From Escherichia coli (GTDB lineage: Bacteria > Pseudomonadota > Gammaproteobacteria > Enterobacterales > Enterobacteriaceae), in the NCBI RefSeq assembly GCF_013315695.1, contig NZ_CP054353.1: 64,000 nt of DNA. The stretch is one strand, 5' to 3'. Below are positions 61,801 to 64,000 of this stretch, piece after piece. Numbering within the stretch: the stretch's first letter is position 1; each line of letters starts with the position of its first letter. The position numbers were made by a program.

Positions 61801-64000
61801 GCAGTGGCAAAAGTACGCTGGCGCAACTGATGGCAGGCTGGTATCCGGACTTTCTGCCAGGAGAGATAACCGGCACGGGGACGCTTCTCGGTACGCCCAT
61901 TGGGCATATCCCGCTTAATGAACAATCCGCCACCATCCAGCTCGTTCAGCAATCGCCCTATTTGCAGCTCTCCGGCTGTACCTTTAGCGTGGAAGAAGAA
62001 GTTGCCTTTGGGCCAGAAAATCTGTGTCTTGCTGAAGAGGAGATTATGGCGCGGATTGATGCCGCCCTGACTCTGACCGAGTGCCAGCCGTTGCGCCATC
62101 GTCACCCGGCAACACTCTCCGGTGGAGAGACACAGCGTGTGGTCATCGCCTGCGCCATCGCGATGCAGCCAAAGCTCTTAATTCTTGATGAAGCCTTTAG
62201 CCGCCTGACGCCGCAGGCCTGCGAAATGCTGTTGCAGCGCTTACAACACTGGGCGCTTGAACGTGGTTCGCTGATTATTCTTTTTGAACGTCATCGTACA
62301 CCTTTCCTGAACTACTGCCAGCAAGCGTGGCAATTGCAAAACGGAGCGCTCCAGCCACTATGTTAACGTTAAATCAGATAACTTATCGCTGGCCTGACGC
62401 GGCAACGGATTGTCTTTGCGACATTTCTCTGCAACTCAAACAAGGTGAATGGTTGGCGCTGACCGGCGACAATGGCGCGGGAAAATCGACGCTGTTACGA
62501 GTAATGGCAGGTCTTCTTACGCCCACAGCCGGTACGGTTATGCTGCAACAACAGGCGATGAAAAACCTGAAAAACCGCCAGCGCGCGGCAAAGATTGGCG
62601 TACTGTTTCAGGAAGCGGAAAACCAGCTTTTTCACAGCACCGTCGCTGACGAGATCGCATTTGGTTTGAAACTGCAAAAATGCCCGGCGGATGAAATCAC
62701 TCAACGTACCAATGCTGCCCTGCAATGCTGTCAGTTAGCAGACACTGCCAGCGCGCATCCGCTGGATCTGCATAGTGCGCAGCGACGGATGGTCGCCGTC
62801 GCCTGCCTGGAAGCACTCTCTCCGCCGCTATTGCTGCTGGACGAGCCGAGTCGGGATTTTGACGAAAATTGGATGAGCGTGTTTGAAAGTTGGCTGGAAA
62901 AGTGCCGCCAGCGAGGCACGAGCGTCGTAGCAATCAGTCATGACGCCGCATTTACCCGGCGTCATTTCTCTCGTGTGGTGCGACTGGAAGATGGTGTAAT
63001 CAGGAACGTTAATCCATCAGACGATATTCACCCGTAGCGGTCATCATTAAGGTCAAATTTGCAGGCAGACTCTCTTCCAGCACCCGGCGAACATTCGGCC
63101 CGTCGGTACGGTCATAAAAGGCTTCTGCGTCTGCCAGCGATAACCCTCCCGCCAGCTTGCGCCCCACCAGACGCTCCCGCAACGCAGATGCGGGAGCTTT
63201 GATAAAGATCGAGAAATCACAAAATTGCGCAAGCTGGCGCCACTTCTCGTCGTCCAGCAACAACCAGTTTCCTTCGACGATGACGAGTGGTGCGGTAACG
63301 TGCAACGCATCTTCAACAGGATCATGCTTTTGTCGATCGTACTGCGGCCACGTACAATCCCCTTCCACCACCTGGCGCAGATTTTCCGCCAGTTTCGCAA
63401 CGTCAAATGTCTCTGGTGCGCCTTTGAAGGGGCGCAATTGATGCGCGTCCAGCCAGCTATTGTAATGGTGAAAACCATCCATCGGGAGCGTCTGAATAGC
63501 GGGCAGCTCCGGGTCTTGTTGCGCGAGATATTCCCAGAAGGTGGTTAGGGTAGATTTACCCGTCCCCGGCGGAGCGCAAAGAAAAACCACCGTACGCCGC
63601 TGCGGATTTACCGTCTGTAAGGCCGCCAGCATACGCAGCAACGGTTTATGCACGCGTTCTATCTCTTCATCATGGTACTGTGCCTGTATCTTCAGCCCAT
63701 TCACCGTTAATTCAATTTTCACGGCGTTAATTCCTTTAAGGTGGTCGTTACTGCCAGCGTCAGCGCCGTTTTGACCATCCCGCTAAAACGCGCCTCTGAC
63801 CAGACGGCGAAATCGGCGAACTTCATCGCTTTCAACGCGTCATAGAGCGTCGCATTGCGGGTTATGCTATTGACGTTGCTGATAAAATCCCAGGTCATAT
63901 CATCAGCAAATCCGGGCGTTTCATCCTGTTCGTTCAGGTAATGCCAGAACTGGGAAAAATGCGTGATATCGGCGTACAGCCATTTATCCATTTTCCCCAG

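What the first reader, a model, noticed from the sequence alone, without database searches (positions are those of the whole stretch)
62360..63037. Second ATPase of the ECF module has a degenerate ABC signature motif
The first ATPase carries a canonical signature (LSGGETQRV). At the equivalent position the second ATPase reads LHSAQRRMV while keeping Walker A, Q-loop and Walker B. This suggests an asymmetric heterodimer with one consensus and one degenerate ATP site, which could affect coupling stoichiometry.
Basis: seen in the sequence. Interest (0 to 1): 0.4.

Follow-up and report, generated by a model that had tools for sequence, protein, structure and literature searches.

The report
ECF transporter with one degenerate ATP site
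The two ATPase subunits of an uncharacterised E. coli vitamin-type (ECF) importer are complementary: one has lost the ABC signature and the other the catalytic histidine of the same shared ATP pocket, so the motor probably burns ATP at only one of its two sites. This arrangement is familiar from ABC exporters, but I found no description of it for ECF importers.

Summary
The window is E. coli chromosome. Between epd and yggC lies a five-gene cassette: PCC-domain protein, ECF S component, T component, ATPase A1 and ATPase A2. A2 (62360-63037) reads LHSAQ exactly where ABC ATPases read LSGGQ, has no other SGG motif, and keeps Walker A, Q-loop, Walker B Glu, D-loop Asp and switch His. A1 keeps an invariant LSGGE.

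A1 has Arg201 where the switch histidine should be (FER motif, conserved), and it lacks the D-loop Asp. In a head-to-tail dimer, A1's H-loop and A2's signature line the same ATP pocket. One site is therefore degenerate on both faces and the other is consensus.

The pattern is conserved under purifying selection across Enterobacterales. It also occurs in natural A1-A2 and T-A1-A2 fusions. It recurs in most fused ECF-type ATPases sampled, including a YkoD orthologue. The most likely mechanism is ATP binding without efficient hydrolysis at the degenerate site and turnover at the A2 site only. That is inferred, not shown.

Degenerate sites are well known in ABC exporters and some importers. I found none described for ECF transporters. 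Interest is moderate.

The parts
59961..60392 (+). PCC/PPC-domain protein (143 aa), first gene of the cassette
   Evidence: PF03479 at 95.5 bits. PGAP names it 'PPC domain-containing DNA-binding protein'. It is the first gene of the same cassette in unrelated contexts L002, L003 and L089.
60415..60993 (+). ECF transporter S (substrate-capture) component, 192 aa
   Evidence: PF12822 ECF_trnsprt scores 32.1 bits against a cutoff of 30.7. NF045596 (CD3073-family S component) scores 133 bits, below its equivalog cutoff of 180. PGAP annotates it as 'ECF transporter S component'.
60994..61701 (+). ECF T (transmembrane coupling) component, 235 aa
   Evidence: PGAP name. Pfam CbiQ scores 22.5 bits, just under its cutoff of 25. 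Orthologues carry a weak CbiQ hit. The sequence shows the two Arg-Gly coupling-helix motifs, EAQRARGV and LAIRGAALD.
61689..62366 (+). ATPase A1 (225 aa): canonical signature, non-canonical H-loop and D-loop
   Evidence: PF00005; best NCBIfam hits are ECF_ATPase_1 and cbiO. Motifs located. Family conservation.
61791..61817 (+). A1 Walker A GDNGSGKST (aa35-43)
   Evidence: G-x-NG-S/C-GKST in all homologues.
62115..62141 (+). A1 canonical signature LSGGETQRV (aa143-151); contributes to the consensus ATP site
   Evidence: L143, S144, G145, G146 and E147 are invariant across the A1 subfamily, including fused relatives.
62175..62210 (+). A1 Walker B LLILDE (catalytic E168 kept), followed by A169 and then D-loop FSRLT (aa170-174), which has Thr where the canonical Asp sits
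   Evidence: FSRLT in 117/117; column equivalence to A2 SRDFD.
62283..62294 (+). A1 H-loop 'FERH' (aa199-202): Arg201 at the switch-histidine position
   Evidence: hhalign aligns R201 with A2 H194. The Gly anchor gives the same register in both (A1 G193+8, A2 G186+8), and the AF2 strand start agrees. 'FER' is invariant while residue 202 varies N/R/H/T/D/A.
62360..63037 (+). ATPase A2 (225 aa): the finding. All catalytic motifs intact, signature degenerate
62465..62491 (+). A2 Walker A GDNGAGKST (aa36-44)
   Evidence: invariant G36, N38, G39, G41, K42, S43.
62768..62794 (+). A2 degenerate signature LHSAQRRMV (aa137-145), preceded by the family-specific invariant HPLD (132-136)
   Evidence: Aligned on LSGGQKQ of ABCB1/ABCB4 and on A1 LSGGE. 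Of the motif, only L137 and R143 are invariant in the subfamily.
62828..62863 (+). A2 Walker B LLLLDE (E162), followed by P163 and then D-loop SRDFD (aa164-168, D168 kept)
   Evidence: D161, E162 and D168 invariant.
62936..62944 (+). A2 H-loop SHD (switch His194)
   Evidence: H194 and D195 invariant.

Best explanation
The cassette encodes a dedicated (group-I-like) ECF-type ABC importer. Its motor is an obligate A1:A2 heterodimer with two non-equivalent ATP sites.

Site 2 is a consensus catalytic site. It is built from A2 Walker A, the Q-loop, Walker B Glu162 and switch His194, together with the A1 signature LSGGE.

Site 1 is degenerate on both faces. It is built from A1 Walker A, the Q-loop and Walker B Glu168, but has Arg201 in place of the switch His, and it faces A2's LHSAQ in place of LSGGQ.

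A1 keeps the P-loop lysine and an A-loop aromatic residue, so site 1 should still bind ATP. The γ-phosphate-clamping Ser and Gly of the signature and the switch His are missing, so hydrolysis there should be slow or absent.

The likely cycle is as follows. ATP stays bound in site 1 and keeps the two NBDs associated; these NBDs lack the C-terminal dimerisation domain of EcfA/EcfA'/CbiO. ATP binding and hydrolysis at site 2 alone drive closing and opening of the dimer. That movement is passed through the T component's coupling helices to the S component. The cost would be roughly one ATP per cycle.

Shown here: the motif pattern, its conservation, its mapping to one composite site by alignment, and the existence of natural fusions. 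Inferred: ATP occupancy, lack of hydrolysis at site 1, the hinge role and the stoichiometry.
For: Conservation:
- A2 keeps LH[TSA]A together with intact Walker A, LDEP and SHD in 120 homologues.
- The A2 subfamily alignment keeps H194, D195, E162 and D168 invariant, but of the signature only L137 and R143.
- The A1 subfamily keeps LSGGE invariant but has no conserved His in the H-loop: FER[NRHTDA], LERN, LERT, LDVD.

Purifying selection: dN/dS against E. marmotae is 0.10 for A1 and 0.19 for A2, and 0.055-0.12 for the PCC, S and T genes.

Heterodimer:
- A 7-nt A1/A2 start-stop overlap (ATGTTAA) is visible.
- Natural A1-A2 fusion P0122 sits in a PCC-S-T-AA' cassette.
- T-A1-A2 triple fusions P0133 and P0167 exist.
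- The AF2 model of the linked pair has pLDDT 92.6 and pTM 0.89. Its best whole-model PDB matches are ATP-bound closed NBD dimers: 8wdb_D at TMq 0.76 and 6c0v at 0.74.

Generality, from 142 fused two-NBD ECF-type representatives:
- The N-half keeps SGG in 130/141; the C-half keeps it in only 39/142.
- The C-half keeps His in 141/142 and Glu in 141/142; the N-half keeps His in 100/131.
- A canonical N-half catalytic set (requiring [TS]H) against a canonical C-half signature gives the table [[32,8],[7,84]], Fisher p = 2e-16.

The fused proteins are ECF-type by best family hits and by context: PCC-S-T-AA' and ykoF-E-D-C.

From established knowledge of ABC NBD dimers, ATP is sandwiched between Walker A of one NBD and the signature of the other. 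Degenerate sites in TM287/288, TAP and CFTR combine an NBD1 catalytic-residue change with an NBD2 signature change (reviews read).
Against: No biochemical data exist for this system. Several points weaken the inference.

- A1 retains the Walker B catalytic Glu168 and the Q-loop Gln, so site 1 is less degenerate than in classical cases where the Glu is lost.
- E. coli A1 has a His at 202, next to Arg201, that might substitute. It is not conserved in other genera.
- Pairwise HMMER alignments placed the switch position at E200, R201 or H202 depending on the target. The R201 assignment rests on the profile-profile alignment and on the Gly anchor.
- His138 and Ser139 of LHSAQ could in principle still contact the γ-phosphate.
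- A1's D-loop lacks the canonical Asp although it faces the supposedly consensus site. I cannot explain this.
- In a group II ECF transporter, either single E-to-Q mutant abolishes ATPase activity and transport (PMC10368641). One-site operation is therefore not a general ECF property.
- The 142-protein sample was chosen by similarity to A2 and its members are phylogenetically related, so the Fisher p-value overstates independence.
Confidence: 0.7

Rival explanations
1. Both ATP sites are catalytically competent. LHSAQ and the ER(H) H-loop would be tolerated, lineage-specific variants that still support hydrolysis, so the motor is functionally symmetric and uses two ATP per cycle.
For: A1 keeps Walker A Lys, Q-loop Gln and Walker B Asp-Glu. 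More distant A2 relatives keep the second Gly of the signature (LHAGQ). E. coli A1 has His202 adjacent to the switch position. In a group II ECF transporter both sites are needed.
Against: The signature Ser and first Gly, and the switch His, are among the residues whose loss defines hydrolysis-deficient sites in other ABC heterodimers. The two deviations are complementary and map to one site. They also co-occur across fused ECF ATPases, which is the signature of relaxed constraint on one site rather than of neutral drift. His202 is not conserved.
Confidence: 0.2
2. A2, or the whole cassette, is a decaying non-functional remnant, and the odd signature is mutational erosion.
For: The cassette is dispensable: it is absent from 39% of complete E. 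coli genomes and from K-12. A2 has the highest dN/dS of the five genes (0.19).
Against: All five ORFs are intact and syntenic in Escherichia, Salmonella, Klebsiella and Atlantibacter. dN/dS is 0.05-0.19. Every other catalytic motif of A2 is invariant down to about 35% identity. The degenerate motif itself follows a conserved family pattern, HPLDL-x3-(Q/E)RR.
Confidence: 0.03
3. A1 and A2 do not pair with each other. Each would form a homodimer that serves the T component alternately or serves a different partner.
For: Group I ECF systems such as CbiMNQO and BioMNY use homodimeric ATPases (established knowledge; PMC6828968 lists homodimer, heterodimer and fused arrangements).
Against: An A2 homodimer would have two degenerate signatures, and an A1 homodimer would have two Arg H-loops. 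Only the heterodimer yields one complete site. Overlapping, translationally coupled genes, natural A1-A2 and T-A1-A2 fusions and the confident head-to-tail model all point to A1:A2.
Confidence: 0.03

Closest known systems
Group II ECF modules EcfA-EcfA'-EcfT (e.g. L. delbrueckii ECF-FolT2/CbrT, L. brevis 4HUQ, T. maritima EcfAA' 4HLU)
   Same: A heterodimer of two different CbiO/EcfA-type NBDs sits on one T component with a small integral-membrane S component. EcfA1/EcfA2 chains are among the best single-NBD PDB sequence matches.
   Different: Both EcfA and EcfA' carry consensus LSGGQ, and either single Walker B E-to-Q mutant kills activity (PMC10368641). Here one site is degenerate. Both E. 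coli ATPases are 225 aa and lack the C-terminal domain of roughly 50-60 aa (matches end near residue 218 of chains of 279-290 residues). The module is dedicated to one S component encoded in the same operon.
Fused ('duplicated') group I ECF ATPases such as YkoD of the thiamine-related YkoEDC transporter
   Same: These are the closest relatives by sequence. The polarity of asymmetry is the same: the N-terminal NBD keeps LSGGx but has a deviant H-loop, and the C-terminal NBD keeps DEP/THD but has a deviant signature. A YkoD orthologue in a ykoF-E-D-C context reads LSGGM/IIEHN in the N-half and LSQGQ/MVTHD in the C-half. P0122 is a direct A1-A2 fusion of the E. coli subfamily.
   Different: The E. 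coli NBDs are separate polypeptides. The S component is PF12822/CD3073-like rather than YkoE (PF09819). A PCC-domain gene replaces ykoF. The YkoE paper I read (PMC5037267) describes YkoD only as two fused ATPase domains and does not mention site degeneracy.
Heterodimeric ABC transporters with one degenerate nucleotide-binding site (TM287/288, TAP1/2, CFTR, LmrCD/BmrCD; in importers RbsA and NupO)
   Same: There is one consensus site and one degenerate site. The degenerate site combines a catalytic-residue change in one NBD with a signature change in the other. The expected behaviour is ATP binding without hydrolysis (PMC3971661; PMC7756269; PMC11466899).
   Different: Those are type I/IV exporter-fold or type II importer systems. 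This one is an ECF (type III) importer with a toppling S component. Here the Walker B Glu is retained, and the H-loop His is replaced by Arg.

Membership tests
ECF-type ABC importer (type III), dedicated/group I organisation | Small integral-membrane S component (ECF_trnsprt-type) | tested here: met
   PF12822 scores 32.1 bits against a gathering cutoff of 30.7. PGAP names it 'ECF transporter S component'. The NF045596 equivalog cutoff is not reached (133 against 180), so the substrate class is unassigned.
ECF-type ABC importer (type III), dedicated/group I organisation | T component of the CbiQ/EcfT family with two Arg-containing coupling-helix motifs | tested here: inconclusive
   Pfam CbiQ scores 22.5 bits, below its cutoff of 25. 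Orthologues carry weak CbiQ hits, and a fused-relative cassette has a clear CbiQ hit. PGAP names it the T component. The motifs QRARG and AIRGAALD are visible in the sequence. This is probably met, but not by a curated threshold.
ECF-type ABC importer (type III), dedicated/group I organisation | Two CbiO/EcfA-type ABC ATPase domains | tested here: met
   PF00005 is present in both. The best NCBIfam hits are ECF_ATPase_1/2 and cbiO, below the equivalog cutoffs (120-150 bits against 315-330). The ATPases therefore belong to the ECF/CbiO-like subfamily but are not EcfA1/EcfA2 equivalogs.
ECF-type ABC importer (type III), dedicated/group I organisation | S, T and A genes in one operon | tested here: met
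   The genes are contiguous and overlapping on one strand. The same order is conserved in other genera and other contexts.
ECF-type ABC importer (type III), dedicated/group I organisation | C-terminal helical dimerisation domain on the ATPases (as in EcfA/EcfA'/CbiO structures) | tested here: not met
   Both proteins end about 10-15 residues after the last NBD strand. Matches cover positions 2-217 of 269-279-position ECF ATPase profiles and residues about 6-218 of chains of 279-290 residues. The AF2 model shows no extra C-terminal domain.
ECF-type ABC importer (type III), dedicated/group I organisation | ATP-dependent uptake of a micronutrient | not testable with these tools
   The substrate is unknown. 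No riboswitch lies upstream, and I found no literature on the Salmonella orthologues.
ABC NBD heterodimers with one degenerate ATP site | Two non-identical NBDs forming a head-to-tail dimer | tested here: met
   A1 and A2 align at 26% identity in the profile-profile comparison. Natural fusions exist. The AF2 linked model has pTM 0.89 and resembles ATP-bound closed dimers. This is a prediction, not an experiment.
ABC NBD heterodimers with one degenerate ATP site | Non-consensus signature motif in one NBD | tested here: met
   A2 reads LHSAQ where LSGGQ is expected, and this is conserved.
ABC NBD heterodimers with one degenerate ATP site | Non-consensus catalytic residue (Walker B Glu and/or switch His) in the partner NBD, in the same composite site | tested here: met
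   A1 has Arg201 at the switch-His position. The Walker B Glu168 is retained, so the degeneracy is partial.
ABC NBD heterodimers with one degenerate ATP site | The other composite site is fully consensus | tested here: inconclusive
   A2 Walker A, Q84, E162 and H194 with A1 LSGGE are all canonical. However, A1's D-loop, which faces this site, reads FSRLT and lacks the canonical Asp.
ABC NBD heterodimers with one degenerate ATP site | Degenerate site binds but does not, or only slowly, hydrolyses ATP | not testable with these tools
   This needs ATPase assays on site mutants, nucleotide-occlusion experiments, or a structure.

The most novel reading that the evidence does not exclude
A large and so far unremarked class of ECF importers works with a single hydrolytic site. 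The class would include split pairs such as this E. coli A1/A2 and most fused YkoD-like ATPases. The degenerate site, permanently loaded with ATP, would act as the hinge that replaces the C-terminal dimerisation domain of EcfA/EcfA'. If so, the S-component toppling and expulsion cycle can be driven by one ATP per turnover, in contrast to group II modules, which need both sites.
Probability: 0.4. Interest if true: 0.5.

Novelty: new variant of a known kind. Interest (0 to 1): 0.35.

Why it matters
ECF transporters are studied as antibacterial targets and as an unusual 'toppling' transport mechanism. How many ATP are used per cycle, and whether the two sites act in sequence, are open questions (PMC10368641 discusses asymmetric nucleotide occupancy). 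A natural ECF motor with one site disabled on both faces would be a ready-made system for separating ATP binding from hydrolysis. It sits in a genetically tractable host: the cassette is present in about 61% of complete E. coli genomes but absent from K-12, and a published analysis reported no ECF AT modules in BL21(DE3). The same polarity of degeneracy in most fused ECF ATPases suggests a general design rule, not a curiosity. The finding does not change the known picture of ABC ATPases. Degenerate sites are textbook for exporters.

Tried and rejected
- **Genome scan.** I scanned genome contigs with the A2-family alignment to collect named orthologous loci. I used exact-protein look-ups instead.
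- **Rfam.** A scan of 59500-63200 found only a sub-threshold DUF3577 RNA hit (E = 0.86) inside A2. There is no riboswitch, so no clue to the substrate.
- **Promoter/terminator scan.** Counts were at shuffle expectation and were uninformative.
- **Literature.** I found nothing describing a degenerate site in an ECF transporter, and nothing functional on STM3071-3075. The library lacks most subscription-journal papers (for example, ECF reviews in Annual Review of Biochemistry or FEMS Microbiology Reviews), so prior mention cannot be excluded.
- **Pairwise HMMER alignments of A1 to PDB chains.** These gave three different registers for the H-loop. I rejected them in favour of profile-profile alignment, the conserved Gly anchor and the AF2 strand boundaries.
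- **AF2 model.** The tool returns no coordinates, so distances between LHSAQ and the A1 P-loop could not be measured.
- **'Horizontally acquired island' reading.** I considered and rejected it. The cassette is syntenic after epd in several genera, so loss in K-12-like lineages is more likely.
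Full report
**Where we are**

The window is Escherichia coli chromosome. The stretch 59900-63100 is 100% identical to several complete genomes and is present in 3330 of 5426 complete E. coli genomes. Between epd and yggC lies a five-gene, same-strand cassette that PGAP annotates as follows:

| Gene | Coordinates |
|---|---|
| PPC/PCC-domain protein | 59961-60392 |
| ECF S component | 60415-60993 |
| ECF T component | 60994-61701 |
| ABC ATPase, here A1 | 61689-62366 |
| ABC ATPase, here A2 (the finding) | 62360-63037 |

K-12 MG1655 has epd and yggC adjacent and lacks the cassette. The cassette sits at the same place in E. marmotae, Salmonella, Klebsiella and Atlantibacter. It is therefore ancestral there and was lost in some E. 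coli lineages.

Domain searches agree with an ECF-type module:
- PF03479 for the first gene.
- PF12822 above its cutoff for the S component.
- CbiQ just below its cutoff for the T component.
- PF00005 for both ATPases, with best NCBIfam hits to ECF_ATPase_1/2 and cbiO. All of these are below the equivalog cutoffs.

**Checking the observation**

A2 is 225 aa. Its motifs and coordinates are:

| Motif | Sequence | Position |
|---|---|---|
| Walker A | GDNGAGKST | aa36-44 |
| Q-loop | Gln84 | |
| Signature position | LHSAQRRMV | aa137-145, window 62768-62794 |
| Walker B | LLLLDE | E162 |
| D-loop | SRDFD | D168 |
| H-loop | SHD | H194 |

phmmer alignments to solved NBDs put LHSAQRR exactly on LSGGQKQ of ABCB1/ABCB4. 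A1 reads LSGGETQRV at aa143-151, window 62115-62141.

**Is it a conserved feature or noise?**

In the 120 closest database clusters (70-97% identity; Escherichia, Salmonella, Citrobacter, Klebsiella, Atlantibacter) the motif is LH[T/S/A]A. Walker A, LDEP, SRDFD and SHD are essentially invariant.

More distant members read LHAGQ, LNSAE, LDAAA, LHAGA or LTHAQ. These come from Serratia, Proteus and metagenomic fused forms at 34-57% identity. H194, D195, D161, E162, D168 and the P-loop stay invariant. Of the signature itself, only L137 and R143 are invariant. A family-specific HPLD immediately precedes it.

All five genes are under purifying selection. Against E. marmotae, dN/dS is:
- PCC 0.12
- S 0.055
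- T 0.09
- A1 0.10
- A2 0.19
- flanking epd 0.05

. A2 is not a decaying gene.

Across 120 A1 homologues:
- The signature LSGGE is invariant.
- The D-loop is FSRLT in 117/117, with Thr where the canonical Asp sits.
- The H-loop is 'FER' followed by a variable residue: N, R, H, T or D.

Relatives fused to A2-like domains read LERN, LERT, LDVD, LDVA or LDTS. No histidine is conserved there.

A profile-profile alignment of the A1 and A2 subfamilies (hhalign, probability 100%) gives these equivalences:
- A1 E200/R201/H202 opposite A2 S193/H194/D195.
- A1 FSRLT opposite A2 SRDFD.
- A1 LSGGE opposite A2 LHSAQ.

A conserved Gly gives the same register: A1 G193 and A2 G186 each lie eight residues before the switch position. 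The strand starts in the AlphaFold2 model also agree.

Pairwise HMMER alignments were ambiguous by plus or minus one residue. The E. coli protein also happens to have His202 next door. The assignment of Arg201 to the switch position is therefore well supported but not certain.

**Mapping to sites**

In every ABC NBD dimer studied, ATP is sandwiched between the Walker A, Walker B, Q-loop and H-loop of one NBD and the signature of the other (established knowledge; summarised in PMC3971661 and PMC7756269). Applying that geometry gives two sites:

| | P-loop side | Signature side | Status |
|---|---|---|---|
| Site 1 | A1 P-loop, E168, Q-loop, R201 | A2 LHSAQ | deviant on both faces |
| Site 2 | A2 P-loop, E162, Q84, H194 | A1 LSGGE | consensus |

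This is the same logic as the classical degenerate sites of TM287/288, TAP and CFTR.

**Evidence that A1 and A2 really pair**

- A1's stop codon overlaps A2's start codon (ATGTTAA), and T overlaps A1 by 13 nt. This suggests translational coupling.
- A natural single-chain A1-A2 fusion, P0122 (503 aa), sits in a PCC-S-T-AA' cassette. Its N-half reads LSGGE/FSRLS/YFERH and its C-half reads LHAGQ/SRDFD/AISHD.
- T-A1-A2 triple fusions also exist: P0133 and P0167.
- An AlphaFold2 model of A1-(GGS)10-A2, built on a 127-sequence alignment, has mean pLDDT 92.6 and pTM 0.89. The helix begins at the third signature residue in both halves.
- The model's best whole-model matches in the PDB are ATP-bound, closed, head-to-tail NBD pairs: M. 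tuberculosis DppD 8wdb_D at TMq 0.76 and outward-facing P-glycoprotein 6c0v at TMq 0.74.

Homodimers would give either two degenerate signatures or two Arg H-loops. Only the heterodimer yields a complete site.

**A wider pattern**

A HMMER search of A2 against 1.84 billion cluster representatives returned mostly fused two-NBD proteins of 460-620 aa. Their best family matches are ECF_ATPase_1/2 and cbiO. Among 142 of them:

| Feature | N-terminal NBD | C-terminal NBD |
|---|---|---|
| xSGGx signature kept | 130/141 | 39/142 |
| Switch His kept | 100/131 | 141/142 |
| Walker B Glu kept | 126/141 | 141/142 |
| Q-loop Gln kept | 123/141 | 140/141 |

Typical C-half signatures are LSRGQ, LSKGE, LSQGQ, LTRGE and LPKGD. 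The N-half switch His is often preceded by Glu ('EH').

A fully canonical N-half catalytic set goes together with a canonical C-half signature. The 2x2 table is [[32,8],[7,84]], with Fisher p = 2e-16. Two caveats apply: the sample was selected by similarity to A2, and its members are not phylogenetically independent.

Genomic contexts confirm that these are ECF modules:
- P0130 lies in a PCC-S-CbiQ-AA' cassette.
- P0137 from Thalassobacillus lies in a ykoF-ykoE-ykoD-ykoC-type operon. It reads LSGGM/IIEHN in the N-half and LSQGQ/MVTHD in the C-half.

The E. coli pair is therefore a split representative of a broad class of dedicated ECF motors with one degenerate site.

**Mechanism proposed**

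A1 retains the P-loop Lys and an A-loop aromatic residue (F-x-Y at aa7-9, conserved). Site 1 should therefore bind ATP. It lacks the signature Ser and Gly that clamp the γ-phosphate, and it lacks the switch His, so it should hydrolyse poorly or not at all. Site 2 should be the only efficient catalytic site.

Both ATPases lack the C-terminal domain that holds EcfA and EcfA' together in solved ECF structures. I therefore suggest that ATP resident in site 1 acts as the permanent hinge, and that binding and hydrolysis in site 2 open and close the dimer to move the T-component coupling helices.

All of this paragraph is inference. I put about 0.7 on 'site 1 is hydrolysis-deficient and site 2 drives the cycle', and less on the hinge idea.

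Points against:
- A1 keeps its Walker B Glu.
- His202 could compensate in E. coli.
- A1's D-loop, which faces the consensus site, unexpectedly lacks Asp.
- In a group II ECF transporter, either single E-to-Q mutation abolishes ATPase activity and transport (PMC10368641).

**Comparison with what is known**

Degenerate sites are described as frequent in ABC exporters (PMC3971661; PMC7756269). They have also been noted in the fused importer NBDs RbsA and NupO (PMC11466899).

For ECF transporters, the papers I could search describe two LSGGQ-bearing subunits, both of which are required. They describe YkoD simply as two fused ATPase domains (PMC5037267). No solved structure of a fused or degenerate-site ECF ATPase turned up. 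I found no paper on this cassette or its Salmonella orthologues. The searchable library omits many subscription-journal reviews, so an earlier remark cannot be excluded.

I rate the finding as a new variant of a known kind. It is an ECF importer (known) built with the one-consensus, one-degenerate site design (known elsewhere). It has short ATPases without the C-terminal domain and a conserved PCC-domain partner.

**Verdict**

Interest is moderate (0.35). A specialist would not be astonished, but the system offers a natural, genetically accessible test of ATP stoichiometry and site asymmetry in ECF transport.

Noticed in passing
window 59961-63037; L088 (K-12 MG1655 3070000-3077000): The whole ECF cassette is a presence/absence polymorphism. 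It is in 3330 of 5426 complete E. coli genomes and is absent from K-12 MG1655, where epd and yggC are adjacent. It is syntenic in E. marmotae, Salmonella, Klebsiella and Atlantibacter. A published analysis reports no ECF AT modules in BL21(DE3) (PMC3459881). I checked only K-12 MG1655 myself; most natural E. coli genomes in the collection do carry an ECF-type system.
   Followed up: partly
window 59961-60392; L002 919-1383; L003 2606-3025; L089 1645-2088: A PCC/PPC-domain (PF03479, DUF296-type) gene is always the first gene of this ECF cassette. This holds even in unrelated genomic contexts and when the ATPases are fused. It is probably a functional partner (substrate handling or regulation); its role is unknown.
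   Followed up: partly
window 61689-62366 and 62360-63037 (3' ends): Both ATPases are only 225 aa and lack the roughly 50-60-residue C-terminal domain present in EcfA, EcfA' and CbiO. Matches stop at about position 217 of 269-279-position profiles.
   Followed up: partly
window 62196-62210 (A1 aa170-174): The A1 D-loop is FSRLT in 117/117 enterobacterial homologues, with Thr at the canonical Asp position. This loop faces the supposedly consensus ATP site. I have no explanation.
   Followed up: partly
window 61689-61701, 62360-62366, 63009-63037: Three gene overlaps. T and A1 overlap by 13 nt. A1 and A2 overlap by 7 nt (ATGTTAA), which suggests translational coupling. The 3' ends of A2 and convergent yggC overlap by 29 nt; this is 29 nt in E. 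marmotae, 32 nt in Salmonella and 44 nt in Atlantibacter by the called gene coordinates.
   Followed up: partly
P0133 (L091 3501-5552), P0167, P0122 (L002 2681-4192): Relatives of this module exist as single-chain A1-A2 fusions and as T-A1-A2 triple fusions, with the transmembrane coupling subunit and both NBDs in one polypeptide.
   Followed up: partly
L090 2326-5952 (Thalassobacillus devorans): A YkoD orthologue in a ykoF-ykoE-ykoD-ykoC operon shows the same asymmetry: LSGGM/IIEHN in the N-half and LSQGQ/MVTHD in the C-half. The thiamine-related YkoEDC transporter may therefore also have a degenerate site. The YkoE structure paper I read does not mention this.
   Followed up: partly
window 62756-62767 (A2 aa133-136) and 62783-62788 (aa142-143): The degenerate signature is embedded in its own conserved family motif, HPLDL-x3-(Q/E/A)-RR. 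H133, P134, D136, L137 and R143 are invariant down to 34% identity. This suggests a retained structural or nucleotide-contact role rather than free drift.
   Followed up: no
window 62863-62966 (+): A sub-threshold Rfam match to DUF3577 RNA (21.5 bits against a gathering score of 42.6, E = 0.86) lies inside the A2 coding sequence. It is almost certainly chance.
   Followed up: no
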